NCBI GenBank assembly: GCA_039649175.1 | Contig: JBBWZS010000020.1 | Coordinates: 1,450-65,449, forward strand | Source of the DNA: Acidimicrobiaceae bacterium | GTDB taxonomy: Bacteria > Actinomycetota > Acidimicrobiia > Acidimicrobiales > AC-14 | Direction of reading: 5' to 3' | DNA length: 64,000 nucleotides | Shown: piece after piece, positions 8,065 to 28,048 of the stretch | How the letters are laid out: each line of letters starts with the position of its first letter | Numbering within the stretch: position 1 is the first letter of the stretch | Translations under genes and position numbers: made by a program | Notes under the pieces: model-generated | Told to the model about the DNA's origin: nothing | Database searches by the model: none | What the model saw: the letters and a program-made list of their open reading frames with translations, nothing else

Positions 8065-9450
8065 TCAGGAGAAGCAGTAGGAGTCGGATGATGCGTCGCC
8101 GCCCTGGAGTCGCACCTGGTGGACCCGCAGGCCGCGGAAGTCGGTGACGAAGAAGTCGGGGTCGAAGGCGATCCCGCCCGCCGGATCGACGTCGAGCTTG
8201 ACCATCCAGGCCCCCACACCCTCGGGGTAGAACTGGTCGTCCCAGGCCCCGTAGAGGGAGTTGGTGAAATAGACCCGGCGCCCGTCGCGGCTCACCTCGA
8301 CCATCTGGGGCCCGCCCCGTAGCCGCTCGGGCGAGGACGGGTGCGGGGCGCCGTCGACGATGCCGCCGATGCGGACCGAGCCGGTGAGCACCGGGGCGAG
8401 GGGGTCGCTCACGTCGTATTGACGCAGCTCGCCCGTCCCCCAGCACGACACGTACAGGAACCTGTCGTCGACCGACAGGTCGATGTCGGTGACCAACGGG
8501 GGCACGGCGCCGAAGCCCTGCAGCAGCGGCGGCAGCACACTGGCATCGGCGGGTTCGGCCGGGATGTCGATGACCTTGGTGATCTGCCACTCGCCCGCGT
8601 CGATGTGCCACACCCAGATCGACGCCGACAGGTCCTCGACGCTGACGACCACTCCGAGGAAGCCGTAGGCCTTGTCGGGATGGTGGGCGGGCCGCAGCTC
8701 CAGGGCCATCTGGTACTGGTCGCCCAGGTCGAGGGTCTGGAGGTGGGTGCGCCCGGCCAGGTCCCAGATGTGGATGGCGTGGCCGTACTTGCGACCGAGG
8801 AGCAGCTCGGGGACGATCCCGTCCTCGATCATCGACGGCGTCCCCCACTCGCTGGTCACCATCACGCCCCGGTTGAGGTGCCACCAGAAGTCGTAGGCCA
8901 GGTACTGCGGACCCCGGTCGAGCTCCCAGCGCTCGAGCACGTCGAAGGTGGCGTGGTCGAGCAGGGCGATGCCGCCCGGGCCCTCCTCGCCCGCCCCGCC
9001 GAGAGCCGACAGGAACAGACCGTCGGGCCCGCAGTGCAGGGTGTGGGGCCGGGAGTACCCGGCCTTGGACGCGAGCTCGGCGGCGTCGATCACCCGGTCG
9101 AGGTGGGGCTGACGGGGGTCGGGCCGGGTGTCGACGACGTTGATGCGCGAGGACCGGATGCCGGGGACGAGCAACCAGCGCCGCTCCATGTGGTCGGGGT
9201 CGTGGCCGGTGTGGCACAGGGCCGAGCTGCAGGCGTTCCACCCGAAGTGATGCAGCTCGTCCCCCGCCTCGGGCATGTCCAGCCATCCCACCACGGTGGC
9301 GAACCCGGCCGACGACTTGTCGACGTCGACGACGGCCAGAGCGTCGGGTCGGCTGCCCTCGCCGCGGTGAAAGGCGGCCACGTAGGCCAGCTCCTCGGCG
9401 GGGGCGGCGGCGGCATCTTCGGGAGTCCGGTAGAACGTCGGATCGACCAT
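8065..9450 (-). CDS. Selenium-binding protein 56 (SBP56) family protein / methanethiol-oxidase homologue, cytoplasmic form
   Basis: MVDPTFYRTPEDAAAAPAEELAYVAAF, HHFGWNACSSALCH, RRWLLVPGIRSSRINVVD. 461 aa with no signal peptide. Confidence 0.85.
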   Translation of the reverse strand: MVDPTFYRTPEDAAAAPAEELAYVAAFHRGEGSRPDALAVVDVDKSSAGFATVVGWLDMPEAGDELHHFGWNACSSALCHTGHDPDHMERRWLLVPGIRSSRINVVDTRPDPRQPHLDRVIDAAELASKAGYSRPHTLHCGPDGLFLSALGGAGEEGPGGIALLDHATFDVLERWELDRGPQYLAYDFWWHLNRGVMVTSEWGTPSMIEDGIVPELLLGRKYGHAIHIWDLAGRTHLQTLDLGDQYQMALELRPAHHPDKAYGFLGVVVSVEDLSASIWVWHIDAGEWQITKVIDIPAEPADASVLPPLLQGFGAVPPLVTDIDLSVDDRFLYVSCWGTGELRQYDVSDPLAPVLTGSVRIGGIVDGAPHPSSPERLRGGPQMVEVSRDGRRVYFTNSLYGAWDDQFYPEGVGAWMVKLDVDPAGGIAFDPDFFVTDFRGLRVHQVRLQGGDASSDSYCFS

Positions 9451-13906: not shown

Positions 13907-16900
13907 GTGAGCGCCGCCGACCGGATCGCATCCTGGCCGGTGCTGCGCCAGTTGCGAGGCGGTGACCCACTCGGTCTCGGACCGGCGGCACAGTCGCCCC
14001 GGTCGGCCTCGCTGGTGCCCCGCACGGAGACCGCCGACAAGGTGGTGGACTCGATCTGCCCGTACTGCGCGGTGGGCTGCGGCCAGAAGGTGTACGTCAC
14101 CGACGGCCAGGTGACCCAGATCGAGGGCGATCCCGACAGTCCCATCTCGCGGGGGCGCTTGTGCCCCAAGGGCTCGGCCAGCCTCAGCCTGGTGACCGCC
14201 CCGGCCCGCGAGCAGAAGGTGAAGTACCGCCGGCCCTACGGCACCGAGTGGGAGGACCTCTCGCTGGTCGAAGCCATGGACCGCATCGCCGACCGGGTCA
14301 TTGCCACCAGGGCCGCAACCTGGCAGGAGCGTGACGACAACGAAGACCTCACCCTCAAGCGCACGCTGGGCTTCGCCAGCCTCGGAGGAGCGACCCTCGA
14401 CAACGAGGAGAACTACCTCATGAAGAAGCTCTACACCGCCCTGGGCGCGGTGCAGGTGGAGAACCAGGCCCGCATCTGACACTCCTCCACCGTCCCCGGT
14501 CTGGGGACCTCGTTCGGGCGGGGCGGCGCCACCACCTTCCAGCAGGACCTGCAGAACGCCGACTGCATCCTCATCCAGGGCTCCAACATGGCCGAGTGCC
14601 ACCCCGTTGGCTTCCAGTGGGTGATGGAGGCCAAGGCCCGGGGGGCGACGGTGATCCACGTCGACCCCCGGTTCACCCGCACGAGCGCCCTGGCCGACAT
14701 CCACGTGCCCATCCGGGCGGGCAGCGACATCGCCTTCCTCGGCGGCATCGTGAACCACATCCTGGCCAACGGGCGCGAGTTCCGCGAGTACGTGGCCGCC
14801 TACACCAACGCCGCGACCCTCGTCGGCGACGGCTTCGCCGACACCGAAGACCTCGACGGCCTGTTCTCGGGCTTCGACGCCGACAACAAGACCTACGACC
14901 CGGCCACCTGGCAGTACGCGGGCATGACCACCGCCACCGCCGCCGCCGGCCACCGCGAGCAGGCGATGGGCGAGGCCCACGGGCACGGGTCGAAGCACCA
15001 GGGGGCGGGTCGCCCCGACAGCGACCCGTCCCTCGAAGATCCCCGCTGCGTCTTCCAGATCCTCAAGCGCCATTTCTCGCGCTACACGCCGGAGATGGTC
15101 GAAGAGATCTGTGGTGTCCCCCCGGAGCTGTTCACCCGGGTGGCCGAGGCCCTGTGCGCCAACTCGGGACGGGAGCGCACCTCGGCGTTCGTGTACTCGG
15201 TGGGCTGGACCCAGCACACGGTGGGGGTGCAGTACATCCGCACCGCGTCCATCATCCAGTTGCTGCTGGGCAACATCGGGCGGCCGGGCGGCGGCATCCT
15301 CGCCCTGCGCGGCCACGCCAGCATCCAGGGCTCCACCGACATCCCCACGCTGTTCAACATCCTCCCCGGCTACCTGCCCATGGTGCCCGCCCGGGGGCCC
15401 GCCGACCTGGCCGCCTACATCGACGCCTACAACGCACCGGCGGGGTTCTGGGGCCACATGGACGCCTACCTGGTGAGCATGCTCAAGGCGTGGTGGGGCG
15501 ACGCCGCCACCGCCGACAACGACTATTGCTTCGACTACCTGCCGAGGATCGACGCCGACCACTCGCACTACCGCAGCACCCTCGACATGGCCGACGGCAG
15601 GGTCAAGGGCTTCTTCGTGGTGGGCGAGAACCCGGTGGTGGGCTCGGCCAACGGCCGCCTCCAGTGCCAGGCTCTGGCCAACCTCGACTGGCTGGTCGTG
15701 CGCGACCTGGTGGAGATCGAGACGGCGGCGTTCTGGTACGACTCCCCCGAGATCGACAGCGGCGAGGCCCGCACCGCCGACATCGGCACCGAGGTGTTCT
15801 TCCTGCCCGCCGCCGCCCACACCGAGAAGGACGGGAGCTTCACCAACACCCAGCGCCTCCTGCAGTGGCACCATGCCGCCGTCGAGCCGGCGGGCGACTG
15901 CCGCTCCGACCTGTGGTTCTACTTCCACCTCGGTCGCATCATCAAGGACAAGCTGGCCCACTCCACCGAGGCGCGCGACCGACCCGTCCTCGATCTCACC
16001 TGGGACTACCCCACCCACGGCCCGACGGCCGAGCCTGACGCCGAGGCCGTCCTCCGGGAGATCAGCGGGTGGGGACCGCACGGGGCCGTCGACGGGTACG
16101 CCGACCTGAAGGCCGACGGGTCCACCGCCTGCGGCTGTTGGATCTACTCGGGCTCCTACGCCGGCGAGGCCAACCAGGCGGCCCGGCGCAGGCCCGGGTC
16201 GGAGCAGTCGTGGGTGGCGCCGGAGTGGGGCTGGGCGTGGCCGGCCAATCGCCGGATGCTCTACAACCGGGCGTCGGCCGACCCCGAAGGCCGGCCCTGG
16301 TCGGCGCGGAAGGCCTACCTGTGGTGGGACGAGGATTCGGGCCGGTGGACCGGTGAGGACGTGGCCGACTTCGTCGCCACCATGCGCCCCGACTACCGGC
16401 CTCCAGAGGGTGCGTCGGCCGAGGACGCCCTGCGCGGCGACGAGCCGTTCGTGATGCAGACCGACGGACGGGGATGGCTGTTCGCGCCGACCGGCCTGGT
16501 CGACGGGCCGTTGCCCGCCCACTACGAGCCCCACGAATCACCGTTCACCAACTCGCTCTACGGCCAGGAGTGCAACCCCGCCCGCCTGATCCACTCCCGG
16601 CGCGGCAACCGCTCCAACCCCGGCGGCGGGCGGCCCGGGGCCGACGCCTTCCCCTACGTGGTGTCGACCTACCGGCTCACCGAGCACCACACCGCAGGTG
16701 GTATGAGCCGGTTCCTCGCCTACCTGTGCGAGCTCCAACCCGCCATGTTCTGCGAGGTCAGCCCCGAGCTGGCAGCCGAGCGGGGGTTGGTGAACGGCGG
16801 CTGGGCCACGGTGGTGACGTCCCGATCGGCCATCGAGGCCCGGGTGCTGGTGACCGAGCGCATGCCTGCGCTGCGCGTGCAGGGCCGCACCGTCCACCAG

Positions 16901-17116
16901 GTGGGCCTGCCCTACCACTGGGGGCGGCGCGGCCTGTCGCCCGGTGACTCGGCCAACGACCTGGCGGGCGTGGTGCTCGACCCCAACGTCCACATCCAGG
17001 AGTCCAAGGCGGCGTCGTGTGACATCCGCCCCGGCCGCCGTCCCCGAGGACCCGACCTCACCCGCCTGGTCGACGAGTACCTGGGCCGCGCCGGTATCAC
17101 GAGTGAGGGACCATGA
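13907..17116 (+). CDS. fdhA: Molybdopterin formate dehydrogenase alpha subunit, selenocysteine-containing (TGA at 14477-14479 read as Sec)
   Basis: Track ORFs 13721..14479 and 14588..17116 are in the same frame and joined through one TGA. Context is ...VQVENQARI-U-HSSTVPGLGTSFGRGGATTFQQD, the FdnG/FdhF-type Sec/Cys site. N-terminal 4Fe-4S motif CPYCAVGCG...CPKG. Start GTG 13907 gives SAADRIASWPVLRQL, which I recall as the usual N-terminus in actinobacterial homologues. Confidence 0.85.
14492..14508 (+). promoter_or_regulatory. SECIS-like hairpin 12 nt downstream of the fdhA UGA
   Basis: GTCCCC-GGTCT-GGGGAC: perfect 6-bp stem with a 5-nt loop GGUCU. From memory, the E. coli fdhF SECIS apical loop has the same loop sequence. 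Confidence 0.6.
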
Positions 17117-17958
17117 TCGCCCGACCCTCGCCGGGCGACCCGGCCACCGATGCCGGCTGGACGACCGACCAGCCCCGGCTCGGGTTCTTCACCGACACGT
17201 CGCTGTGCATCGGCTGCAAGGCCTGCGAGGTGGCGTGCAAGGAGTGGAACGGCGTGCCCGACGACGGCTTCGACTTCTCCGGCACGTCCTATGACAACAC
17301 CGGCGCGCTGGGCGCCGACACCTGGCGACACGTCACGTTCACCGAGAAGCTGGTGCCCGCACCCGGCGGTATCGGTAGCGGTGGCGGTGACGAGGTGCGT
17401 TGGCTGATGTCGTCGGATGTGTGCAAGCACTGCACACACGCCGCCTGCCTCGACGTGTGCCCCACCGGCGCCCTGTTCCGCACCGAGCACGGCACGGTTG
17501 TGGTGCAGGACGACGTGTGCAACGGGTGCGGGTACTGCGTGCCCGCCTGCCCGTTCGGGGTCATCGACCAGCGCCGGGGCGACGGCCGGGTGTGGAAGTG
17601 CACGCTCTGCTACGACCGCATCGGCGCCGGGATGACGCCGGCGTGCGCGCAGGCCTGTCCGACCGAGTCGATCAAGTTCGGCCGCCTCGACCAGCTCCGA
17701 GCCTCCGCCGACGGGCGGGTGACGACCCTGCGCGCCGGGGGCGCCCCCGACGCCCGGCTCTACGGCGCCGACACCACCGACGGCGTCGGGGGGATGGGGG
17801 CGTTCTTCCTCCTGCTCGACGACCCCGAGACCTACGGCCTCCCTCCCGACCCCGTCGTCACCACCCGCGACCTGGCTTCGATGTGGCGGACGGCGGGAGC
17901 GGCCGCTGTCGCCGTGGTGGCCAGCGTGGCCGGGGCCGTACTGGCCGGCCGCCGGTGA
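17113..17958 (+). CDS. fdhB: Formate dehydrogenase beta subunit (4x[4Fe-4S] ferredoxin-type, C-terminal TM anchor)
   Basis: ATGA overlap with fdhA. CIGCKACEVACKEWN, CKHCTHAACLDVCP, CNGCGYCVPACP, CTLCYDR...CAQACP. Hydrophobic tail AAAVAVVASVAGAVLAG. Confidence 0.9.
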   Translation: MIARPSPGDPATDAGWTTDQPRLGFFTDTSLCIGCKACEVACKEWNGVPDDGFDFSGTSYDNTGALGADTWRHVTFTEKLVPAPGGIGSGGGDEVRWLMSSDVCKHCTHAACLDVCPTGALFRTEHGTVVVQDDVCNGCGYCVPACPFGVIDQRRGDGRVWKCTLCYDRIGAGMTPACAQACPTESIKFGRLDQLRASADGRVTTLRAGGAPDARLYGADTTDGVGGMGAFFLLLDDPETYGLPPDPVVTTRDLASMWRTAGAAAVAVVASVAGAVLAGRR

Positions 17959-18010: not shown

Positions 18011-18919
18011 GTGACCGGAACCGAGGATGGGGCGGTGCGGACCTACTACGGCCGTCCCGTGCTCAAGGCGCCGGTGTGGAAGTGGCCGATCCCCGTGTAC
18101 TTCTTCACCGGCGGGATGGCCGGCGCCTCGGCCAGCCTGGCCCTGGCTGCCCGCCTGAGCGGTGACGGGGCGCTGGCCCGCCGGTCCCTCGGGGTGGCGG
18201 CACTCGCGGCCGCCGCCAGCCCGCCGCTGCTCATCGCCGACCTGGGCCGCCCCGAGCGGTTCCTCAACATGCTCCGGGTCGCCAAGGCCACCTCGCCCAT
18301 GAGCGTGGGCACCTGGGTGGTGTCGGCCTTCGTGCCCGCCGCCATCGGCGCCGCCGCGTGCGAGCGCACCGGACGCCTGCGCCGGGTCGGCCGGGTGCTC
18401 GAGGCCGTCGCCGGTGCTCTCGGCCCGGTCATGTGCACCTACACCGGCGTCCTGGTGGCCGACACCGCCGTGCCCGCGTGGCACGAGGCGCACCGCGAGC
18501 TGCCCTTCGTGTTCGCCGGCAGCGCCATGGCCAGCGCGGGGGCCGCCGCCGTGGCCCTGTCGCCGGTGGACGGGACCGGGGCGGCCATCGCCCGCCGGCT
18601 CCTGGCCGCCGGCGTCGTGGTCGAGGGGGCGGCCAGCCAGGTGATGGAGCGGGCCCATCCCCATGCCTGTGCGCCCTACCGCGGTGCCGGTCGGGCCGCC
18701 GTCCTGGCCACGACCGCTCGGGCCCTGACGGTGGCGGGGACGGCCGTCGCCCTCACCCTGGGTCGCAGGCGGCGCCCGGCGGCGACCGCGGGCGGCGCCC
18801 TCGTCCTGGTCGGCGCCCTGTGCGAGCGCCTCTGCGTGAGCGAAGCGGGCGTCGAGTCGGCCCGTGACCCGCGGGCCACCATCGGCCCCCAGCGCAGGCG
18901 GCTCGACCAGGCGCGCTGA
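18011..18919 (+). CDS. NrfD/PsrC-type integral membrane (quinone-interacting) subunit of the FDH complex
   Basis: YYGRPVLKAPVWKWPIPVYFFTGGMAGAS and multiple TM segments. Lies directly downstream of fdhB. Confidence 0.8.
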   Translation: MTGTEDGAVRTYYGRPVLKAPVWKWPIPVYFFTGGMAGASASLALAARLSGDGALARRSLGVAALAAAASPPLLIADLGRPERFLNMLRVAKATSPMSVGTWVVSAFVPAAIGAAACERTGRLRRVGRVLEAVAGALGPVMCTYTGVLVADTAVPAWHEAHRELPFVFAGSAMASAGAAAVALSPVDGTGAAIARRLLAAGVVVEGAASQVMERAHPHACAPYRGAGRAAVLATTARALTVAGTAVALTLGRRRRPAATAGGALVLVGALCERLCVSEAGVESARDPRATIGPQRRRLDQAR

Positions 18920-18924
18920 CCCGG

Positions 18925-19197
18925 TCAGGGCTGGTCGTCGCTGGGCAGCAGGGAGCGGGCCACGGCGACGGCCTCGGCCAGGGCGTCGGCGGGCGTGGCC
19001 CCGGCCGCCACCCGGGCGGCGACGAAGCGTCCGGCCACGAAGGTCGACAACGGTGCGAAGCGCCGCTCGCTGCCGTGAGCCACCTCCCGGGCCAGGTCCA
19101 GCAGAGCCCCGACCTCGGCCTCGGTCAGGTCGGCGCCGAGGGCCATGGCGTAGCGCCGGGGCCACTCCGGCTCGGGGATGCCGGTGGGCTCGCTCAT
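18925..19197 (-). CDS. Small conserved protein usually found beside mobA (DUF6457-like, from memory)
   Basis: 90 aa. ATGA overlap with the mobA stop. High GC3 coding bias. Confidence 0.5.
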   Translation of the reverse strand: MSEPTGIPEPEWPRRYAMALGADLTEAEVGALLDLAREVAHGSERRFAPLSTFVAGRFVAARVAAGATPADALAEAVAVARSLLPSDDQP

Positions 19198-19796
19198 GGG
19201 CGGGCGCCGAGCAGGGCGCGGGCCCTGTCGAGGTCGGCGGGGCGGTTGACGTTGAGAGTCGCCGCGGGGTCGAGCGTGACCGCCACCACGTCAGGAGGGA
19301 GCAGCCGGGCCGCCGGCAGGCCGGCCAGCTCGGGGCCCAGCCCGTGCAGGCGGGCCCGCAGGGCCGGGCTCCGGTGCACAGCCAGCAGCGGGTGAGCACG
19401 ACCCCGCTCGTCGAGGGCGGCAACCGCTTCCACCGCCGGGTCGCACAGGGCGGCGGACAGCGCCTCGAGGTGCGCGGAGGTGAGCAACGGCAGATCACCG
19501 GCGAGCACGGCGACGGCGACCGCCGCATCTTCGTCGACGGCCCCCAATCCGGCGGCCACCGCCGGCACCGGCCCCCCGCCGGGCGCCGCCTCGGTCGTGA
19601 ACACGACCCCTTCGACGGCGGTGGCTCGCCTGGGACCGACCACCACCACCTCGTCGCACAGAGGCCGGGCGGCGGACAGCACCCGGTCGAGCAGTGAGCG
19701 CCCGCCCACCTCGAGGGCCAGCTTGTCGACGCTGCCCATGCGCCGGGCCGAGCCACCGGCCACCACGACGGCCGCCAACCGGACCGGGGCGCTCAT
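19194..19796 (-). CDS. mobA: Molybdenum cofactor guanylyltransferase
   Basis: MSAPVRLAAVVVAGGSARRMGSVDKLALEVGGRSLLDRV, LAGDLPLL. ATG at 19796; the longer track ORF to 20201 is an upstream extension. Confidence 0.85.
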   Translation of the reverse strand: MSAPVRLAAVVVAGGSARRMGSVDKLALEVGGRSLLDRVLSAARPLCDEVVVVGPRRATAVEGVVFTTEAAPGGGPVPAVAAGLGAVDEDAAVAVAVLAGDLPLLTSAHLEALSAALCDPAVEAVAALDERGRAHPLLAVHRSPALRARLHGLGPELAGLPAARLLPPDVVAVTLDPAATLNVNRPADLDRARALLGARP

Positions 19797-20013
19797 GACC
19801 AACCCGATCCTACTGGGACCGCAGGCGCCGGGCCCCCGCAACCCGGGAGTGTCACGGGGCCCCGGAACCTGGCGGCACCACCGTGCGAGCATCGGCACCC
19901 GAGGCGCCCGACTGGAGGCCGGCATGGGGGCCGGGCGACCGCCGCGCCGCAGACGGTGCGAACTACGCTCTCTCGCACCTGGACACACCGTCTGAGGAGA
20001 GGACCCACTCACC

Positions 20014-20445
20014 ATGCTTCGTCGATTGATCGCTCCTGTCTCCGCACTCGCCCTGGGGGGACTGGCTGTCGCCGGCGCCATGCCTGCCGGCGCCGCCACC
20101 CGCACGTTCACGGTTGCCCTGCACGGTTCCGAGGAGGTGCCCCCCGCCGATGGCGGCTCGGGCACGGCTCGGATCACCGTGGACAGCAGCACCGGACGCA
20201 TCTGCTACGTGCTGCTCGTGTCCAACCTCGGTGGTCCCGCCGTCAGCGCCCACATCCACCAGGCGCCCTTCGGCGTCGTCGGTCCCGACGTGGTGCCCCT
20301 GGAGGCCCCGGTCAACGGCCGTTCGGCCGCCTGCACCACCACCAGCAGGGCCGAGGCCAAGGCCATCCTCGCCCATCCCTCGGACTTCTACGTGAACGTC
20401 CACACCGCCGAGTTCCCGGCCGGGGCGGCGCGCGGCCAGCTGTGA
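20014..20445 (+). CDS. Secreted CHRD domain protein
   Basis: Signal peptide ...AMPAGAA. LHGSEEVPP, AHIHQAP.G, FYVNVHTAEFPAGAARGQL. Confidence 0.8.
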   Translation: MLRRLIAPVSALALGGLAVAGAMPAGAATRTFTVALHGSEEVPPADGGSGTARITVDSSTGRICYVLLVSNLGGPAVSAHIHQAPFGVVGPDVVPLEAPVNGRSAACTTTSRAEAKAILAHPSDFYVNVHTAEFPAGAARGQL

Positions 20446-21280: not shown

Positions 21281-22963
21281 TCAACCCTTGGGTGGCGGTG
21301 ACCGCAGCTCGGCATCGGTCGGGGGTGCCAGGTTGCCGTAGGGCGGCACCACCACCGGTGCCTCCTTCCACTGGTAGGGGACGAGATCGGGGCCCACCCG
21401 GTGGCCGCCAGGACCACTGTCGACATCGCCGTCGTGGCGGAAGTGGGCGCCGTACCAGACGACGAGGTCCTGGCGCTCGACGGACTCGCCCGACACCATG
21501 CGGTCGAGGTTGGCCCGTGACAGCGCCGGGTCGGTCGTGAAACCCTGGCCGTCGTCGACCTCGTTGGGGTCGTAGCGCAGGATCCAGACGTCGCCCGCGC
21601 CGTACGTGTCGGCGGTGCCGTCACCGGGCCCGGGGCGGATGGCGTAGCCCTGCGACGCCCTGGTGTTGCGCACCCGCCAGTACCGGCCGTGTTCGGCGCT
21701 GCGGTCCCGGCGGACCTCCAGGCGGATCGTGTGCCAGTTGGCCGTCTCCACCACGGGTGGGTCGTTGTACTCCTGGATCACGTTGCTCTGGGCCTCGAGG
21801 ATGTCGAAGTCGAGGCGCCAGTAGACGTTGTGATGGTGGGCCTGGCAGGTGCACGGGTTCTGGGCGGCGGCGAACCCGAAACGGGGGCGGATGGTGCCGT
21901 CGGCGGCCAGCCGCCACTCGCTGACATAGCGGTACCAACCGGCCTGGAGCTGGCTGACGATCACCAGCTCGTCGCCGTCGAGCCACAGCGCCACGCCCCG
22001 GAAGTTCCCTCCGTCGGCCTGGCTCTCGAGAATGGTCTGCGGCGCGGTGGCACACAGCCGGAAGCCGGCGACAGCCTCGTCGCCTTCGGCGATGAAACAA
22101 CTCTCCTCGTGCTGCCAGTCGCGATAGGTGGGGCCGCAACCGGTCGCGGCCCCGCCGTCGCCGTAGGCGACGTTGAGGATGGGGGCGTGGGCGCGGGACA
22201 GGACCCGCTGGCCCTTGTAGTCGACGGTGCGCAGCTCGACTCCCGAGCCGTTGGTGCCCGACGACGCCGAGGGGCGCACCACGACCAGGTCCCAGAGCAC
22301 GGTGGCACCCCGGCGCACGCGCACACGGGCCTGGCCCACCCCGGCGGTCAGGGCACAGGTCGGGCCTGGGGGCGCCCCACACTCGGCCGCCGAGGGCGCC
22401 ACGATCCCCGCCGGCTCCCGGATGATCTCGGCGTCGAAGGTGCGCACGCCCACGATGCGGTGGCGCCCGCCGCCGCCGTCGCCGTCGGGGGTGCGCAGGC
22501 CCACGGCGATGACCCGGTCGACGGAGCCGTCGGCGTTGTGGATGTTGACCAGGGGTGGCATTGGTCGGTAGGCGTAGGCACCCTCGGGCTCGAGCAGCGC
22601 CGCCATCTCCGGATCGTCGCCCAGGATCGAAACCGCCCAGGTGTGCTCGTCCTCGCTCGGCGGCCACTGGTGGGCGGTCGGGAAGATCTCCGAGCTACCG
22701 GGGTCGTCGAGCCAGCCCTGGACCCGGGCGGACCGACCAGTCGTGGTGTCGTGCACCAGGGTGCTGAAACGGGGGCCGTCCCCATCGTCCTTGTCGACCA
22801 CATCGAAGCCCACCAGCCACAGGTCACCGGCCGGGAAGTGCTGTCGGAGCAGGGGATGCGAAAGGATGGCCTTGGTGGCGGCGGCGTGGGCGGTGGTGTA
22901 GGTCTGCTCGGCGACCACCTCGACTTCGAGGGGCTCTTTGTCCGCTGCGGCTTCCTCTGGCAT
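21281..22963 (-). CDS. Copper amine oxidase-like protein with a divergent active-site motif
   Basis: AHHHNVYWRLDFDI resembles the CuAO HxH...RLDxxIDG block. DLVVWYGAHFRH resembles D(I/V)VxWxTxGxxH (third His). GWYRYVSEWRLAADGTI aligns to GNY(D/E)Y...F..dGtI. ATG 22963 has a GGGAGG RBS. Confidence 0.6.
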   Translation of the reverse strand: MPEEAAADKEPLEVEVVAEQTYTTAHAAATKAILSHPLLRQHFPAGDLWLVGFDVVDKDDGDGPRFSTLVHDTTTGRSARVQGWLDDPGSSEIFPTAHQWPPSEDEHTWAVSILGDDPEMAALLEPEGAYAYRPMPPLVNIHNADGSVDRVIAVGLRTPDGDGGGGRHRIVGVRTFDAEIIREPAGIVAPSAAECGAPPGPTCALTAGVGQARVRVRRGATVLWDLVVVRPSASSGTNGSGVELRTVDYKGQRVLSRAHAPILNVAYGDGGAATGCGPTYRDWQHEESCFIAEGDEAVAGFRLCATAPQTILESQADGGNFRGVALWLDGDELVIVSQLQAGWYRYVSEWRLAADGTIRPRFGFAAAQNPCTCQAHHHNVYWRLDFDILEAQSNVIQEYNDPPVVETANWHTIRLEVRRDRSAEHGRYWRVRNTRASQGYAIRPGPGDGTADTYGAGDVWILRYDPNEVDDGQGFTTDPALSRANLDRMVSGESVERQDLVVWYGAHFRHDGDVDSGPGGHRVGPDLVPYQWKEAPVVVPPYGNLAPPTDAELRSPPPKG

Positions 22964-23112
22964 CGGTGCTCGACCTCCCGGAGTGCCCAGTTCGGGCGTT
23001 TGGCCGCCTGGGCCCGAGCGGCCTCGGAGCGGCGGCTCGGTGACGACATGCCTTTCTACCTCCCGGGCGACGCTCGGCTGTCCCTGCCCGACCGCAGGTA
23101 GGTTTGTCGGCA

Positions 23113-24408
23113 ATGCCCGACATCCCCGAGAACGGTCTGACCCGGCTGGTGCACCAGGTCACCGAGGTGGCCACCGGGCCCGACACCACGTTCGCCGACG
23201 GTCGCCTCACCGTCTCGGCCAAGGCCGCCCGCGAGTGCCTGGCCGACCCCGCCCTGGCTCACGTCGAGGTGACGTGGGCCTCCCCGGGCCAGTCGGTGCG
23301 CATCGTGAAGGTCCTCGACGCCGTCGAACCGAGGACCAAAGGGGCAGGTGGGGGTGGCATCTTCGCCGGCTTCGTCGGCCCCGACCGGGTCCAGGGCCGG
23401 GGATCCACGCACGTGCTGCGGGGGGCGGCGGTCGTGGTCGCCGGGTTCCTGCCCCGGGCCCAGGAAGCGGTGGTCGAGATGTCGGGCCCGGCGGCGGCCC
23501 TGTCACCCCTTGGCGCCACCCACAACCTGGTGGTCGAGTTCACCCCGGCCGAGGATGCTCCCTGGGAGGACGTCGACCGAGCCCTGCGCGGAGGCGCGTT
23601 GCGCCTGGCCGTGCATCTGGCCGATGCCGCCCTCGACACCCCGCCCGATGCCGAGGAGTGGCTGCCCGCCCCCACTCCTCCCACCGGCGGCGGCGGCCGG
23701 TACCGGGTGGGTGCCATCACCAACCTCCAGACCCAGGGCACCTTCAAGGACGTCTTCGTCTACGGCCGCAGCTTCTCGGGGGGCCTGCCCACCCTGATCG
23801 ACCCCGGCGACCTCGACGACGGGGCCGTGGTGAGCGGCCAGTTCGGGCACCCGTCGCTCAAGAACCCCACCTTCATGCATCAGAACCACCCCGTCGTCGC
23901 CGCCCTGCGGGCCCGCCACGGCGTCGACGTCGACTTCGCCGGCGTGGTGATCTCCCCCGAGCCGGTGGTCGCCAGCCAGAAGGAGTTGGTCTCGGCCCAT
24001 GCCGCCCGCCTGTGCGCGGCGGCGGGCTGGGACGCGGCCATCGTCACCAAGGAAGGCGGCGGTAACGCCGACGGCGACGTGGCCCTCAAGATGGACGCCT
24101 TGGAAGACGCCGGGGTGATGGCCGTGGGCCTGTTCGCGGAGATGGCGGGGCCCGACGGCACCGGACCACCCATCGTCGTGCCCCCGGAGCGGGCGACGGC
24201 CATGGTGAGCACCGGCAACTACGACGAGCGCCTGGTGCTGCCTGCCGTCGAGCGGGCCCTCGGAGGCGACGCGGTGGCCCTGGTCGACCGTCCTGCCACC
24301 GACGAGCTGCAGCTGCCGATCGCCGTGGTCTACTGCGCCCTGAGCCCCCTGGGCTGGGGCCACCTCACCTGCGCGCCCGAGGTCGGGACAGAGGTGTTGT
24401 CGGCATGA
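23113..24408 (+). CDS. Glycine/sarcosine/betaine reductase component B substrate-binding subunit (GrdE/GrdG/GrdI family)
   Basis: SPGQSVRIVKVLDAVEPRTKGAGGGGIF, GSTHVLRGAAVV, VEMSGPAA, TNLQTQGTFKDVFVYG, PTLIDPGDLDDGAVVSGQF-GHPSLKNPTFMHQNHPVV, IVTKEGGGN. ATG 23113; the track uses TTG 23104. Confidence 0.8.
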   Translation: MPDIPENGLTRLVHQVTEVATGPDTTFADGRLTVSAKAARECLADPALAHVEVTWASPGQSVRIVKVLDAVEPRTKGAGGGGIFAGFVGPDRVQGRGSTHVLRGAAVVVAGFLPRAQEAVVEMSGPAAALSPLGATHNLVVEFTPAEDAPWEDVDRALRGGALRLAVHLADAALDTPPDAEEWLPAPTPPTGGGGRYRVGAITNLQTQGTFKDVFVYGRSFSGGLPTLIDPGDLDDGAVVSGQFGHPSLKNPTFMHQNHPVVAALRARHGVDVDFAGVVISPEPVVASQKELVSAHAARLCAAAGWDAAIVTKEGGGNADGDVALKMDALEDAGVMAVGLFAEMAGPDGTGPPIVVPPERATAMVSTGNYDERLVLPAVERALGGDAVALVDRPATDELQLPIAVVYCALSPLGWGHLTCAPEVGTEVLSA

Positions 24409-25697
24409 GCCGGGTCGTGCACTACATCAACCAGTTCTTCGCCGGCGTGGGCGGCGAGGACTCGGCCGGCACCCCACCCACGACCCGCCCCGAAGCGGTC
24501 GGACCGGGCCGGCGCCTGGCCCAGCTCATCGGCCCCGACCACGAGGTCGTGGCCACCGTCTTCTGTGGCGACGACCACGCCTCCGGTGACCCGGCGGCCA
24601 TCGCCGAGATCATCGACCTCGTCCGCGCCGCCGAGCCCGACCTGGTGGTGGCCGGGCCCGCCTTCACCAGCGGCCGCTACGGCCTGGCCTGCGCCCGGGT
24701 GGCGGCCGCCGCCACCGCCGCCGGGATCCCCGTCATCGCCTCCATGCACCCCGACAACCCCGGCCTCGACGAGGCGGGCGGCGCTCCCGTCGTGGCCAGC
24801 GGCGAGGTGGCCCGCCAGATGGGGCCGTCACTCGACAGGCTGGCTGCCGCCGTGCGCCGGATGCTGGCAGGCGAGACGCTCACCGCCGACGACGGTCGCA
24901 TCGGCGCCGTGCCCCGCCGGTCACGGGTGGCCACCAGCGATGCCGCCAGCCGGGCCGTCGACCTGGTGCTGGCCCGCCTGGGGGGCGACGCCGCCGCCAC
25001 CGAGGTGCCCCTGCCCCGGTTCGACCACGTCACCCCGGCGGCGCCGGTCGCAGACCTGGCCACCGCCACGCTCGCCCTGGTCACCGAGTCGGCCCTGGTG
25101 CCCGACGACAATCCCGACCACCTCGAGTCGGCCCGGGCCACCAAGTGGTTGCGCTACCCCCTCGACGGCCGTGACTCGCTCACGCCCGGCGAGTGGCGCT
25201 CCGTGCACGGCGGCTTCTCGACGGTGTGGGCCAACGAGGACCCCCACCGCCTCCTGCCCCTCGACGTGGCCCGCCGCCTCGAAGGCGAGGGCCTCATCGG
25301 CAGCCTGTACCCGGCCTACCTCGTGACCGCCGGCAACGGCACGTCGGTGGGCAACGCCCGGCGCTTCGGTATCGAGTGGGCCGCCGACCTGCGCCACTCC
25401 GAGGTCCGGGCCGCCATCCTCACCGCTACCTGAGGCACCGGCACGCGTTGCGGGGCAACGCTGGCAAAAGAGCTCGAACGGGCAGGCATCCCCACCGCCT
25501 TGCTGTGCAACCTGGTGTCGATCGCCCAGCGGGTGGGTGCACCGCGCATCGTGCCCACCAGGGGCATCCCCTACCCCACCGGCGACCCGTCCCTCACCAA
25601 GGCCGACGAGAACGCCTGGCGGCTGCGCCTGGTCAAGACCGCCCTGGGGGCCCTGGCCACCCCGGTGAAGCAGCCCACCGTGTTCGAAGTGGCGTAA
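24405..25697 (+). CDS. Glycine/sarcosine/betaine reductase selenoprotein B family (GrdB/GrdF/GrdH), TGA at 25431-25433 read as Sec
   Basis: ATGA overlap with the upstream gene. MSRVVHYINQFFAGVGGED. Track ORFs 24405..25433 and 25500..25697 are in the same frame through ...AAILTAT-U-GTGTRCGATLAKELERAGIP, the classical GrdB 'LT(S/A)T-U-GTCTRCGAT' site. Confidence 0.85.
25443..25463 (+). promoter_or_regulatory. SECIS-like hairpin 9 nt downstream of the grdB-like UGA
   Basis: cagcgttg-cgggg-caacgctg: 8-bp stem with a 5-nt G-rich loop. Confidence 0.5.
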
Positions 25698-25724: not shown

Positions 25725-27218
25725 ATGACCGATCGTGCTGTGATCAGCGGGGCCTCCCAGGTGCTGGCCCACGTCCCCGGGCTGGCCCGTCACGGGTCCA
25801 AGCCCCGGCGGGAGCTGGCCAAAGACGAAGGCGTGCAGAAGGCGTTCCTGGCCGCCCTGCGCAGCACCGGCGAGGCGGTGGCCTACGCGCCCCACCAGGC
25901 GTGGCTGGGGGCCCTCCACCCCCGTGACCTCCCCGAACGGCCTTGGGCCCGCCGGCCCGGGCAGAGCCCGGGAGGCAGTGGCGGCGTCGGCCAGGGAGCG
26001 GCCGAGGCCTCGGCCGGCGGGCCCGACGGCACCATGGTGGGCGAGGAGGAGTTCCTCGGGCTGCTGGCCGTGGTCGACGAGTTCGGCCTCATCACCCTCG
26101 ACCCCGAGGCCGCCGACCGGTCCGCCGCCGCCCTGGCCGCCCACCCCCTGGCCAAGGCCCTCGACCTCGACCTCATCGACCGGGCGCGCGGCGACGCCGG
26201 GAAGGTGGCAGCCGAAGACGGCTCCCTGCCCCTGCACGTCGGTGCCGACCGCCTGGTCGGCGCCGTCCGGGGTGCCCAGGCCGACGACGAGTCGCTGTCG
26301 GCCCACGTCCTGCTCGAGAACCTGGCCTCCAAGGCCACCGCCACCCTGGCCCTGCTCCACCTGCTGGCCGCCGGTGACGTCGACCCGACGTCGATCGACT
26401 ACGTGCTGTCCTGCGGCGAGGAGGCCATCGGCGACCGCTACCAGCGGGGGGGCGGCAACCTGGCCAAGGCCGTCGCCCAGGCGGCCGGGCTCACCGAGGC
26501 GTCGGGCGCCGACATCAAGAACTTCTGCGCCGCCCCGGTGCCCGCCCTGGTGATGGCGTCGGCCCTGGTGGCGTCCGGGGTCTTCCGCCGGGTGGCAGTC
26601 GTGGCCGGGGGATCGCTGCCCAAGCTGGGCATGAAGTTCCAGGGTCACCTGTCCCACGACCTGCCCGTGCTCGAAGACGTCCTCGGCGGCACCGCCGCCG
26701 TCATCGAGGCCGACGACGGCCGCTCGCCCATCGTCCGGCTCGACGCCGTGGGCCGCCACCGGGTGGCCGCCGGCGGGTCGGCCCCCCAGATCATGGAGGC
26801 CCTCGCCGTCGAGCCGCTGGAACGGGTCGGCCTGGCCATGACCGACGTCGACGACTTCGCCACCGAGCTGCACAATCCCGAGATCACCGAGCCCCAGGGC
26901 TCGGGCGACGTGGCCGCCCGCAACTACCGCACCATGGCCGCCCTGGCCGTGCGCCGGGGCGACCTCGAGCGCGACGACCTCGCCCGCTTCGTCACCGAGC
27001 GGGGCATGCCCGGGTTCGCCCCCACCCAGGGGCACCTGGCATCGGCGCTGTGCTACCTGCCCCACGCCCTGCGTCGACTGACCGCCGGGGACGCAGGTAG
27101 GGTCTGCCTCGTCGCCAAGGGAAGCCTGTTTCTCGGACGGATGTGCCAGCTTTCCGACGGCATGAGCATGCTGCTGGAGCGCAACCCGGCCGCCGAATCG
27201 CAGGGGAGGGCGACATGA
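25725..27218 (+). CDS. grdC: Glycine reductase complex component C, beta subunit-like (GrdC)
   Basis: The N-terminus AVISGASQVLAHVPGLARHGS...AYAPHQAWLGAL resembles my recollection of the GrdC N-terminus. Thiolase-like core with NFCAAP. 497 aa. Confidence 0.7.
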   Translation: MTDRAVISGASQVLAHVPGLARHGSKPRRELAKDEGVQKAFLAALRSTGEAVAYAPHQAWLGALHPRDLPERPWARRPGQSPGGSGGVGQGAAEASAGGPDGTMVGEEEFLGLLAVVDEFGLITLDPEAADRSAAALAAHPLAKALDLDLIDRARGDAGKVAAEDGSLPLHVGADRLVGAVRGAQADDESLSAHVLLENLASKATATLALLHLLAAGDVDPTSIDYVLSCGEEAIGDRYQRGGGNLAKAVAQAAGLTEASGADIKNFCAAPVPALVMASALVASGVFRRVAVVAGGSLPKLGMKFQGHLSHDLPVLEDVLGGTAAVIEADDGRSPIVRLDAVGRHRVAAGGSAPQIMEALAVEPLERVGLAMTDVDDFATELHNPEITEPQGSGDVAARNYRTMAALAVRRGDLERDDLARFVTERGMPGFAPTQGHLASALCYLPHALRRLTAGDAGRVCLVAKGSLFLGRMCQLSDGMSMLLERNPAAESQGRAT

Positions 27219-27556
27219 CCACCGTCACCGAGGTCACCAAGGACACCTTCGAAGACCTCACCGCCGAGGGCACCGTCCTCATCGACGTCTGGGGCCCGGC
27301 GTGCGTGCCCTGTGTGGCCCTGACCCCCCACGTCGAGCGCCTGGCCGAGCAGCGACCCGACCTCCAGGTCCTCAAGTTGGAGGCGCCCAAGAACCGGCGG
27401 CTGTGCATCGACATGAAGGTCATGGGCATGCCGGCGTTCCTGCTGTTCCGGGACGGCGCCGAGGTGGCCCGGCTCTCCGACCCCGAGCTCACGCCCGAAG
27501 CTCTCACGTCCTGGCTCGACACCACGCTCGAGACCCTGAACCCCGAAGGGGGGTAA
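27215..27556 (+). CDS. trxA: Thioredoxin with a W-G-P-A-C-V-P-C active site
   Basis: ATGA overlap with grdC and a GGGGAGGG RBS. LIDVWGPACVPCVALTPHVERLA...MPAFLLF. The CVPC redox motif is the one recalled for the Grd-associated thioredoxins of Eubacterium acidaminophilum and Clostridium species. Confidence 0.85.
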   Translation: MTTVTEVTKDTFEDLTAEGTVLIDVWGPACVPCVALTPHVERLAEQRPDLQVLKLEAPKNRRLCIDMKVMGMPAFLLFRDGAEVARLSDPELTPEALTSWLDTTLETLNPEGG

Positions 27557-27562
27557 CACACC

Positions 27563-28048
27563 ATGTTGAAAGACCGTCTGGTCATCGCCCTGGGTGAACG
27601 CGACGGCATCTCCGGCCCGTCCATCGAGGCCTGCGTCCGGGCTGCGGGAGGCAAAGTGGTCTTCGGGGCCACCGAGTGCTTCGTCTGAACCGCAGCCGGA
27701 GCCATGGACCTGCACAGCCAGGAGGCGATTCTCCGCCTGGTGGGTGAGCACGGCCCGCAGAACCTGATGGTGATCCTGGGCGCTCCCGATCCCGAGAGCG
27801 CAGAGATCGCCGCAGAGACTGTGGTGCTGGGCGACCCGTCGTACGCAGGACCATTGGCCGGGGCCCAGTTGGGCCTCGACGTGTACCACGTCCTCGAAGA
27901 CGCCATAAAGGCCGACGTGCCCGACGACGTCTGGGAGGAACAGATCGGCGTGATGGCCGATGTCCTCGACGGCCCTGGTGTGGCCACCGCGGTGGCCGCC
28001 ATGCGCGCCCAGGCACCCGACTCACCGGAGGCACCCGCCACCGCCTGA
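27563..28048 (+). CDS. grdA: Glycine/sarcosine/betaine reductase complex selenoprotein A, TGA at 27686-27688 read as Sec
   Basis: Hand translation: MLKDRLVIALGERDGISGPSIEACVRAAGGKVVFGATECFV-U-TAAGAMDLHSQEAILRLVGEHGPQNLMVILGAPDPESAEIAAETVVLGDPSYAGPLAGAQLGLDVYHV. This matches the GrdA signature CFVUTAAGAMD. The track shows only the post-TGA part (27704..28048). Confidence 0.9.

What the first reader, a model, noticed from the sequence alone, without database searches (positions are those of the whole stretch)
23830..23880. Substrate-binding subunit has Phe where GrdE has its pyruvoyl-forming cysteine
In GrdE proproteins, self-cleavage at a Cys (Cys-242 in the Clostridium sticklandii / Eubacterium acidaminophilum proteins, as I recall) generates the pyruvoyl group that binds glycine as a Schiff base. 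My recollection of the local context is ...DGA(I/V)(L/V)SGN-C-VS.CDKN.TY.H.NNP. The protein here reads ...DDGAVVSGQ-F-GHPSLKNPTFMHQNHP, with Phe at residue 244 (codon 23842-23844) and no Cys, Ser or Thr at the equivalent position. Betaine-specific GrdI is reported not to be processed, since a quaternary amine cannot form a Schiff base. This cluster may therefore be a betaine-type (GrdHI-like) reductase or act on another N-substituted or unknown substrate. In a marine or soil actinobacterium, that would imply trimethylamine (or another amine) production.
Basis: partly seen in the sequence, partly recalled or inferred. Interest (0 to 1): 0.7.

Follow-up and report, generated by a model that had tools for sequence, protein, structure and literature searches.

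The report
Uncleaved glycine-reductase-like selenoenzyme in soil actinobacteria
The gene really does have phenylalanine where glycine reductase has its self-cleaving cysteine, but this is the conserved norm for an uncharacterised branch of the enzyme family common in soil actinobacteria, so its substrate (betaine is only one candidate) is still unknown.

Summary
Codon 23842-23844 (TTC) encodes Phe244 of a 431-aa PF09338 protein. By MAFFT and by ungapped BLASTP it lies in the same column as Cys242 of GrdE/GrdG. The betaine subunit GrdI has Phe at that column in 120/120 sequences. The residue is fixed, not an accident: F/Y/L and never C/S/T in 120 close homologues and in 78 GTDB species loci.

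The protein is almost certainly not a pyruvoyl proenzyme, so it is not a canonical glycine or sarcosine reductase. It is not a GrdI orthologue either:
- It is 29-32% identical to GrdE, GrdG and GrdI alike, and forms a separate clade.
- Its selenoprotein partner scores 258 bits against a GrdH cut-off of 775, and fails published GrdB and GrdF motifs.
- No betaine transporter is found in 80 related loci.
- An aromatic residue at this site is the majority state in the superfamily (91 of 136 representative clusters), so it does not diagnose betaine.

What is there is a self-contained module: E*, B* (Sec343, SECIS), GrdC, thioredoxin and GrdA (Sec42). It is conserved in Acidimicrobiia and Thermoleophilia MAGs. 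It never has grdD nearby, and its B subunit reads UxxGxxC instead of UxxCxxC. The substrate is undetermined.

The parts
23842..23844 (+). TTC codon for Phe244, at the position of the pyruvoyl-forming Cys242 of GrdE/GrdG
   Evidence: Sequence read directly. Column identity shown by MAFFT and by ungapped BLASTP.
23113..24408 (+). E*: a 431-aa GrdE/GrdG/GrdI-family substrate subunit (PF09338), predicted to stay unprocessed
   Evidence: Pfam 312.7 bits. NCBIfam GrdG 202 bits against a cut-off of 780, and FarE 108 against 675. 100% identical to P0001 from an Acidimicrobiaceae MAG.
24405..25697 (+). B*: a 430-aa GrdB/F/H-family selenoprotein. In-frame TGA at 25431-25433 gives Sec343, in the motif ILTAT-U-GTGTRCGAT.
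   Evidence: Read-through translation. PF07355 363 bits up to the TGA. The U-G-T-G-T-R-C motif with TGA is present in all 72 detectable homologous genes. All top 120 database homologues stop at about 342 aa, which is at the TGA.
25434..25471 (+). SECIS element immediately after the Sec codon of B*
   Evidence: Rfam SECIS_4, 40.9 bits against a gathering score of 38, E = 5e-6.
25725..27218 (+). GrdC (component C beta subunit). Retains the FCAAP cysteine but lacks the C-terminal helix of about 25 aa found in canonical GrdC.
   Evidence: NCBIfam NF040746 532.8 bits against a cut-off of 450. Alignment with three canonical GrdC proteins.
27215..27556 (+). Operon thioredoxin with a C-V-P-C active site (WGPACVPCV)
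   Evidence: PF00085 58.9 bits. 36% identical to the thioredoxin of the E. gilvus grd cluster.
27563..28048 (+). GrdA selenoprotein A. TGA at 27686-27688 gives Sec42, in the motif E-C-F-V-U-T-A-A-G-A-M-D.
   Evidence: Sequence. tblastn 53% identity to E. gilvus GrdA. PF04723 120.7 bits for the part after the TGA. C-x-x-U with TGA in 62 homologous loci. Rfam found no SECIS here.

Best explanation
The gene encodes the substrate-binding subunit (E*) of a distinct, uncharacterised branch of the glycine/sarcosine/betaine-reductase (Grd) selenoenzyme family. The branch is found mainly in Acidimicrobiia and Thermoleophilia.

**Shown**
- E* cannot make a pyruvoyl group by the GrdE route, because both cysteines are absent.
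- It is encoded in a conserved five-gene module with a Sec-containing B subunit, GrdC, a CVPC thioredoxin and Sec-containing GrdA.
- In some relatives E* and B* are fused into one polypeptide.

**Inferred mechanism**
1. E* stays as one chain and, with B*, binds a carboxymethyl compound X-CH2-COO- whose leaving group X needs no Schiff-base activation. Candidates for X are a quaternary ammonium as in glycine betaine, a sulfonium or a halide.
2. The selenolate of Sec343 attacks the alpha-carbon and releases X.
3. The carboxymethyl group passes to Sec42 of GrdA.
4. GrdC takes it over as an acetyl thioester.
5. Oxidised GrdA is re-reduced by the operon thioredoxin.

**Open points**
- No grdD lies in the module. 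The last step, which in clostridia is phosphorolysis to acetyl phosphate on GrdD, is therefore unaccounted for. It may differ, for example by hydrolysis or transfer to CoA.
- Glycine betaine is the single most likely named substrate, at roughly one chance in four. The evidence does not single it out.
For: - **Site.** F244 aligns with the GrdE/GrdG Cys and the GrdI Phe. It is F/Y/L and never C/S/T in 120 homologues and in 78 species loci.
- **Precedent.** GrdI and FarE, which also lack the cysteines, are described as not being proproteins (PMC10838667).
- **Partner subunit.** 0 of 120 B* sequences match the published GrdB or GrdF motifs, while the controls do.
- **Functional module.**
  - Sec codon plus an above-threshold SECIS in B*.
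  - TGA conserved in 72 B* genes and 62 GrdA genes.
  - GrdC passes its NCBIfam cut-off.
  - Thioredoxin and GrdA are confirmed.
- **Conservation.** The order E-B-C-(Trx)-A holds across 80 GTDB species loci, out of 131 species with a relative.
- **Fusions.** Natural E*-B* fusions P0243 and P0242 exist. AlphaFold2 models P0243 as one compact structure (pLDDT 89.9, pTM 0.84), with high confidence around the SGQY site.
- **Distinct clade.** The protein is equidistant from GrdE, GrdG and GrdI.
Against: - There is no biochemical evidence. The substrate is unknown, and no conserved transporter or catabolic gene accompanies the module.
- The mechanism is transferred from clostridial enzymes that are only about 30% identical.
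- grdD was not found within 8 kb in any of 80 loci, nor in the 64-kb window, so a full Grd cycle ending in acetyl phosphate is not demonstrated. grdD could lie elsewhere in these genomes, which I could not test.
- B* lacks the first Cys of the UxxCxxC motif. That motif is thought to be involved in the interaction with GrdA (review PMC13188914) and in protecting Sec from oxidation (PMC10838667). The carboxymethyl hand-over may therefore differ.
- The NJ tree is crude: no bootstrap, no PrdA outgroup, midpoint rooting.
Confidence: 0.6

Rival explanations
1. It is specifically a betaine reductase, a functional equivalent of GrdHI. It cleaves glycine betaine to trimethylamine plus an acetyl unit.
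For: - Phe at the Cys position, and Ser at the second Cys position, are the same pair as in GrdI (F247/S251).
- B* shares with the one GrdH examined a Trp (SARATKW versus SASATKW) and a Phe (HGGF versus HAGF). GrdB and GrdF have Tyr at both places.
- JGI's automatic annotation labels some B* homologues 'betaine reductase'.
Against: - E* is only 31-34% identical to GrdI, no closer than to GrdE. The GrdI relatives retrieved with the E. gilvus protein are at least 77% identical to it across many genera.
- The NCBIfam GrdH model gives 258 bits against a cut-off of 775, lower than GrdF at 307.
- The clade is separate from GrdI in the tree.
- An aromatic residue at the site is common across the superfamily.
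- The sister Y-type system L088 has Tyr, not Trp or Phe, at the B positions, and sits next to a DASS/CitMHS anion transporter.
- No BCCT transporter is seen in 80 loci, unlike the E. gilvus grdIH locus.
- JGI labels are inconsistent: 'glycine', 'sarcosine' and 'betaine' are all used for close homologues.
Confidence: 0.22
2. It is a genuine glycine (or sarcosine) reductase that activates the amine without a GrdE-derived pyruvoyl group. It might serve glycine catabolism or a reductive-glycine route fed by the neighbouring formate dehydrogenase.
For: - Database names say 'glycine reductase'.
- The best NCBIfam matches are to the sarcosine models GrdG and GrdF.
- A Sec-containing FdnG-like formate dehydrogenase lies 6 kb upstream, and also in 7 related loci.
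- GrdA, GrdC and thioredoxin are canonical.
Against: - Both cleavage cysteines are absent and never restored in about 200 relatives.
- B* fails three of the six elements of the published glycine-GrdB motif and fails the GrdF motif.
- All NCBIfam scores are far below cut-offs.
- The formate dehydrogenase linkage is limited to the closest relatives (7 of 80), so it looks like synteny rather than a functional unit.
- No known Grd enzyme reduces a primary or secondary amine without the carbonyl cofactor (established knowledge; Andreesen 2004, as cited).
Confidence: 0.13
3. The Phe is a misalignment artefact, or the protein is processed at another Ser/Cys/Thr nearby. It would then still be a pyruvoyl enzyme.
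For: S241 (invariant) and S248 lie within four residues of the site.
Against: - The alignment around the site is ungapped and anchored by invariant residues on both sides, in three independent alignments.
- S241 is equally invariant in GrdE, GrdG and GrdI, so it is not the cleavage nucleophile there.
- S248 is S/A/G among relatives.
- GrdI shares this architecture and is reported as not being a proprotein.
Confidence: 0.03
4. The locus is a decaying, non-functional remnant of a glycine reductase operon.
For: grdD is missing, and the first Cys of UxxCxxC is lost.
Against: - All five genes are intact.
- The Sec codons and a SECIS are retained.
- The module shows 62-95% identity, in the same order, across 80 species.
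- The motifs SGQ[FY]GHP, GPAFTSGRYG and VHGGFST are near-invariant.
Confidence: 0.02

Closest known systems
Betaine reductase protein B (GrdI + selenoprotein GrdH) of Peptoclostridium (Eubacterium) acidaminophilum and relatives
   Same: - Same two-subunit family (PF09338 + PF07355).
- Phe at the GrdE-Cys position and Ser at the second Cys position.
- Presumed to be unprocessed.
- Works with GrdA, GrdC and thioredoxin.
   Different: - Only 31-34% identical, and in a separate clade.
- The GrdH model scores one third of its cut-off.
- B* has UxxGxxC rather than UxxCxxC.
- No BCCT transporter and no grdD in the module.
- The host is a high-GC actinobacterium rather than an anaerobic Firmicute.
Glycine reductase protein B (GrdE proprotein + GrdB), e.g. 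Acetoanaerobium sticklandii/noterae
   Same: - Homologous over the full length (32% identity, BLASTP E = 3e-66).
- Same operon partners: GrdA (CxxU), GrdC and a CVPC-type thioredoxin.
- Sec in the B subunit at the equivalent position.
   Different: - Cys242 and Cys246 are replaced by Phe and Ser, so no pyruvoyl group is expected.
- The GrdB signature motifs GPxF[NF]AGRYG, AHGGxD[QTAP] and RV[IL]PxD are not met.
- grdD is absent.
Fluoroacetate reductase FarE/FarB of Cloacibacillus porcorum (PMC10838667)
   Same: - The E-type subunit lacks both processing cysteines.
- The CxxC next to Sec in the B-type subunit is altered.
- It shows that the family can act on a non-amine carboxymethyl substrate.
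   Different: - The NCBIfam FarE model scores 108 bits against a cut-off of 675.
- B* keeps the second Cys of the motif.
- Different phylum, and no evidence for haloacetate use.
Uncharacterised Tyr/Phe-type PF09338 systems, e.g. locus L088 (P0252)
   Same: - Nearest non-actinobacterial relatives (38-39% identity).
- Aromatic residue at the site.
- The B subunit also reads U-G-T-G-T-R-C.
   Different: L088 carries TrxB, GrdD and a DASS/CitMHS transporter next to the genes. The actinobacterial module has none of these.

Membership tests
GrdE (glycine reductase proprotein) | Cys at the self-cleavage site (Cys242, after Asn) that becomes the pyruvoyl group | tested here: not met
   Phe244 occupies that column. 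Relatives have F/Y/L only.
GrdE (glycine reductase proprotein) | Second conserved Cys, four residues downstream (C-x3-C) | tested here: not met
   S248 in the window, and S/A/G in relatives.
GrdE (glycine reductase proprotein) | Cleavage into fragments of about 25 and 22 kDa, with a carbonyl N-terminus | not testable with these tools
   Needs protein expression and mass spectrometry.
GrdB (glycine-specific selenoprotein B) | Published GrdB motif YxNx6GGE...CGD...GPxF[NF]AGRYG...AHGGxD[QTAP]...RV[IL]PxD...TxGNxTxV (PMC9751293) | tested here: not met
   Three of six elements fail: GPAFTSGRYG, VHGGFST and RLLPLD. 0 of 120 relatives match, while the A. noterae and Photobacterium GrdB controls match. 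NCBIfam TIGR01917 gives 264 bits against a cut-off of 602.
GrdG/GrdF (sarcosine reductase) | NCBIfam NF040793/NF040794 cut-offs and the published GrdF motif (IHGGYDR, TTGTGT) | tested here: not met
   202 bits against 780 and 307 against 800. The GrdF motif is absent, while the P. acidaminophilum GrdF control matches. GrdG also has the Cys.
GrdI/GrdH (betaine reductase) | No Cys at the GrdE cleavage position (Phe in GrdI) | tested here: met
   GrdI reads SGS-F-MPCS-S in 120/120 sequences. The window reads SGQ-F-GHP-S.
GrdI/GrdH (betaine reductase) | Orthology: NCBIfam GrdH model NF040795 cut-off, and clustering with characterised GrdI | tested here: not met
   258 bits against a cut-off of 775. 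31% identity to GrdI, against at least 77% among the GrdI relatives retrieved. Separate clade in the NJ tree.
GrdI/GrdH (betaine reductase) | Betaine-dependent formation of trimethylamine | not testable with these tools
   This is a biochemical assay. The only indirect test, a betaine (BCCT) transporter in the neighbourhood, was negative in 80 loci.
FarE/FarB (fluoroacetate reductase) | NCBIfam NF053623 equivalog cut-off | tested here: not met
   107.8 bits against a cut-off of 675.
Grd-type selenoprotein reductase superfamily (PF09338 + PF07355 with GrdA) | E-type and B-type subunit genes adjacent, Sec (TGA + SECIS) in B, and GrdA with CxxU in the same operon | tested here: met
Complete glycine-reductase-type complex (proteins A, B and C) | Protein C made of GrdC plus GrdD, encoded side by side | tested here: not met
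   GrdC is present. No GrdD homologue was found by tblastn in the 64-kb window or within 8 kb in any of 80 related loci. The rest of these genomes could not be searched.

The most novel reading that the evidence does not exclude
Soil Acidimicrobiia and Thermoleophilia, lineages known mostly as aerobes, carry a self-contained selenoenzyme module of E*, B*, GrdC, thioredoxin and GrdA. The module has no pyruvoyl cofactor and no GrdD. It would perform a thioredoxin-driven reductive cleavage of a substrate not yet linked to this enzyme family, or of betaine in an unexpected ecological setting. Its last step would differ from clostridial acetyl-phosphate formation.
Probability: 0.4. Interest if true: 0.7.

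Novelty: new variant of a known kind. Interest (0 to 1): 0.5.

Why it matters
Grd-type enzymes are textbook examples of selenium-dependent, energy-conserving amino-acid reduction in strict anaerobes. Only four substrates have been characterised: glycine, sarcosine, betaine and fluoroacetate. D-proline is reduced by the related Prd system.

This work shows that the cysteine-bearing, pyruvoyl-forming type is a small clade within a much larger set of aromatic-type homologues. One such branch forms a compact grdD-less operon in at least 131 species-level genomes, mostly soil actinobacterial MAGs.

If the substrate is betaine, these abundant soil bacteria would be an unrecognised source of trimethylamine. 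If it is something else, the module points to new selenoenzyme chemistry. In either case, current 'glycine reductase' annotations for these genes are probably wrong. I found no paper in the searchable library linking glycine reductase to these taxa.

Tried and rejected
- **Solved structures.** A PDB sequence search with E* gave no hit at E <= 1. Foldseek of the AlphaFold model against PDB gave only generic periplasmic-binding-protein-like alpha/beta matches (TM <= 0.28, rmsd about 19 A), so no solved homologue exists.
- **Model geometry.** The model's coordinates are not exposed, so I could not measure the distance between the aromatic residue and the Sec site.
- **Alignment for the fusion.** The first alignment (A2) put the B* rows on the wrong half and was discarded. 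Alignments A3 and A4, with more fusion proteins, fixed this.
- **SECIS for grdA.** Rfam found none, and the folding energy is no better than shuffled sequence. Sec there rests on conservation of the TGA.
- **Sec machinery.** There is no tRNA-Sec gene in the window; selA, selB and selD were not searched for.
- **Neighbourhood clues.**
  - Clustering of flanking ORFs in 80 loci found no conserved gene beyond the module. The apparent extra clusters are antisense ORFs or local synteny.
  - The CuAO-like divergent neighbour occurs in only 9 of 80 loci.
  - Pfam annotation of much of the remainder of the window showed nothing related to betaine or methylamines.
- **Sister clades.** The contigs for P0246, P0249, P0256 and P0257 were too short to be informative.
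- **PrdA.** I could not obtain a PrdA sequence, so it is missing from the alignment and the tree has no outgroup.
Full report
**1. What is at the coordinates**

The window has 72% G+C. Its protein at 23113-24408 is 100% identical to a protein from a MAG named Acidimicrobiaceae bacterium. The ORF encodes 431 aa and matches Pfam PF09338 (glycine/sarcosine/betaine reductase component B subunits) end to end, at 312.7 bits. Codon 23842-23844 is TTC, which is Phe244, in the context DDGAVVSGQ-F-GHPSLKNPTFMHQNHP.

**2. Is Phe244 really at the GrdE cysteine position?**

I fetched reference genes from annotated records:
- P. acidaminophilum grdG/grdF on its megaplasmid.
- Acetoanaerobium noterae grdE/grdB.
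- Photobacterium grdE/grdB.
- An Enterococcus gilvus gene that sits directly upstream of an NCBI-named grdH and a BCCT transporter. This is a GrdI.

Three alignments place F244 in the column of Cys242 (A. noterae GrdE, P. acidaminophilum GrdG) and Cys244 (Photobacterium GrdE): a 10-sequence MAFFT alignment, a 136-sequence alignment and ungapped pairwise BLASTP. The second Cys, at position 246, aligns with S248.

GrdI has Phe in the same column (F247, with Ser at the second position). All 120 GrdI homologues retrieved read SGS-F-MPCS-S. [quoted passage not shown]

**3. Is it more than chance?**

Yes. Among the 120 closest database homologues (71-100% identity) the site is F 94, Y 25, L 1. Among 78 GTDB species loci it is F 53, Y 19, L 6. 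It is never C, S or T. The S248 position is S/A/G, so it is not a conserved nucleophile. The surrounding motif SGQ[FY]GHPxLKN is nearly invariant.

**4. The surrounding system**

The gene heads a tightly packed operon:
- **E*** at 23113-24408.
- **B*** at 24405-25697.
  - It is a PF07355 selenoprotein whose in-frame TGA at 25431-25433 (Sec343) is followed directly by an Rfam SECIS_4 hit above the gathering score.
- **GrdC** at 25725-27218, above its NCBIfam cut-off.
- **Thioredoxin** with a CVPC site at 27215-27556.
- **GrdA** at 27563-28048, with TGA 27686-27688 in E-C-F-V-U-T-A-A-G-A-M-D.

A scan of one genome per GTDB species found relatives in 131 species. All of the best 80 are MAGs. Most are labelled Acidimicrobiales/Acidimicrobiia or simply Actinomycetota. 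Others are Thermoleophilia (Solirubrobacterales, Thermoleophilaceae, Gaiellales). A few are labelled Mycobacteriales, Dormibacterota or Gemmatimonadota.

The order E-B-C-(Trx)-A is conserved in these loci. No other gene recurs in the flanks.

Two features set the module apart from canonical clusters.
- **No GrdD.**
  - No GrdD homologue is found in the 64-kb window or within 8 kb in any of the 80 loci.
  - By contrast, grdC and grdD are adjacent in E. gilvus and in the sister system L088.
  - The actinobacterial GrdC also lacks the C-terminal helix of about 25 residues found in canonical GrdC.
- **Altered Sec motif.**
  - B* reads T-[AS]-T-U-G-T-G-T-R-C in all 72 detectable genes. The first Cys of the canonical UxxCxxC is Gly.
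  - The review PMC13188914 describes that motif as the likely GrdA-interacting element.

**5. Which family member is it?**

None of the characterised ones.
- **NCBIfam scores.**
  - E* scores 202 bits on the GrdG model (cut-off 780) and 108 on FarE (cut-off 675).
  - B* scores 307 on GrdF, 264 on GrdB and 258 on GrdH, against cut-offs of 800, 602 and 775.
- **Published motifs.**
  - The motifs of Nobu et al. (PMC9751293) recognise my GrdB and GrdF controls.
  - They match 0 of 120 B* sequences, which instead carry invariant GPAFTSGRYG, VHGGFST and SARAT[KR]W.
- **Pairwise identity.**
  - E* is 32%, 29% and 31% identical to GrdE, GrdG and GrdI.
  - Those three are 38-63% identical to one another.
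- **Tree.**
  - In a neighbour-joining tree of 136 representatives, the window protein groups with P0241-P0243, P0246 and P0249.
  - This group is separate from both the GrdI clade and the Cys-bearing GrdE/GrdG clade. The tree is crude: it has no bootstrap and no PrdA outgroup.

**6. How unusual is Phe here?**

An exhaustive HMMER search of 50%-identity cluster representatives found 861 clusters at E <= 1e-3. Among the 136 full-length sequences of the best 150, the site is Y in 70, F in 21 and C in 12. The rest are H, S, L, W, N and others. That list is ranked by similarity to an F-type query and is therefore biased. Even so, an aromatic residue is clearly a widespread state and Cys is confined to one clade. 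An aromatic residue therefore argues against a pyruvoyl enzyme but says nothing specific about betaine.

The nearest non-actinobacterial relative with usable context is L088 (P0252), at 38-39% identity and with Tyr at the site. It has a complete TrxB-Trx-GrdA-GrdC-GrdD set and a DASS/CitMHS anion transporter. Its B subunit also reads U-G-T-G-T-R-C.

**7. Extra structural evidence**

Two members of the window's clade, P0243 (798 aa) and P0242, are natural fusions of E* and B* up to the Sec codon. AlphaFold2 was run on P0243 with a 68-row alignment. It gives a confident single compact model (mean pLDDT 89.9, pTM 0.84), with pLDDT of about 89-95 around the SGQY site. This fits a stable, uncleaved E*/B* unit. 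No solved structure resembles it, and I could not measure intramolecular distances.

**8. Most likely function**

*Shown:* this is an intact, selenium-dependent, five-gene Grd-type module under strong conservation. Its substrate subunit cannot form the GrdE-type pyruvoyl group.

*Inferred from established Grd chemistry* (Andreesen 2004; Bednarski et al. 2001; both cited):
1. Sec343 of B* attacks the alpha-carbon of a carboxymethyl compound whose leaving group needs no Schiff base.
2. The carboxymethyl group moves to Sec42 of GrdA.
3. GrdC converts it to an acetyl thioester.
4. The operon thioredoxin recycles GrdA.

The fate of the acetyl group without GrdD is open.

Betaine is the best-known substrate of this chemical type. 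It has weak support from the shared Phe/Ser pair and from two aromatic positions shared between B* and the single GrdH examined. Orthology tests, the tree and the gene neighbourhood do not support it specifically. I put betaine at roughly 0.2-0.25, another non-amine or 'onium' substrate at about 0.4, and glycine or sarcosine by an unknown activation at about 0.13.

**9. Novelty and verdict**

Three literature searches combining glycine reductase with Acidimicrobiia, Acidimicrobiales or Thermoleophilia terms found nothing relevant.

The 'betaine-type, hence trimethylamine' inference is not established. The locus is best described as a new variant of a known kind: a pyruvoyl-less and apparently GrdD-less Grd-type selenoenzyme module typical of soil actinobacteria. 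Interest is moderate. It offers a concrete, testable lead to a new substrate specificity and shows that these genes are widely mis-annotated as 'glycine reductase'. The single residue itself is the family norm rather than an anomaly.

Noticed in passing
window 13955-17116 (+), with 17113-17958 and 18011-18919: A selenocysteine-containing FdnG-like formate dehydrogenase alpha subunit. It has an in-frame TGA at 14477-14479 in the motif QARI-U-HSSTV, an Fe4S4 domain before it and molybdopterin domains after it. There is a weak SECIS_3 hit (24.6 bits, below gathering). A 4Fe-4S subunit and an NrfD-like membrane subunit follow. The same FdnG lies near the Grd-like module in 7 of 80 related loci.
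   Followed up: partly
window 25725-27218 and 80 related loci (L008-L087): No grdD (component C alpha, PlsX-like) lies next to grdC anywhere in this clade. The actinobacterial GrdC also lacks the C-terminal helix of about 25 aa found in canonical GrdC. It is unknown whether grdD is elsewhere in these genomes.
   Followed up: partly
window 25431-25452; the B* genes of L008-L087; L088 5851-7150: The motif next to Sec is U-G-T-G-T-R-C rather than the canonical U-G-T-C-T-R-C. The first Cys of UxxCxxC is Gly in all 72 actinobacterial B* genes, and also in the B subunit of the sister Tyr-type system L088.
   Followed up: yes
P0243 (798 aa) and P0242, same clade as the window protein: Natural fusions of the E* and B* subunits into one polypeptide that ends at the Sec codon. 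AlphaFold2 models the fusion confidently (pLDDT 89.9, pTM 0.84).
   Followed up: partly
window 8068-9450 (-): A 461-aa member of the SBP56 family (selenium-binding protein / methanethiol oxidase), Pfam 621.6 bits. It adds to the selenium- and sulfur-related genes on this contig.
   Followed up: no
window 21284-23113 (-): A 610-aa protein with a weak, partial copper amine oxidase domain (38.9 bits), transcribed divergently from the Grd-like operon. It is present in the same position in only 9 of 80 related loci, all among the closest relatives.
   Followed up: partly
window 39145-42108 (-): A ModABC-like ABC transporter (SBP_bac_11 binding protein, permease, and ATPase with a TOBE domain). A MobA-like gene at 19197-20201 (-) is also present. 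Both fit molybdenum-cofactor supply for the formate dehydrogenase.
   Followed up: no
superfamily level (representatives P0241-P0390): Several other long PF09338 proteins (P0272 774 aa, P0342 789 aa, P0388 697 aa, P0375 621 aa) look like E-B fusions from other clades. The family contains many clusters with His, Ser, Asn, Trp or Leu at the 'Cys' site, all uncharacterised.
   Followed up: no
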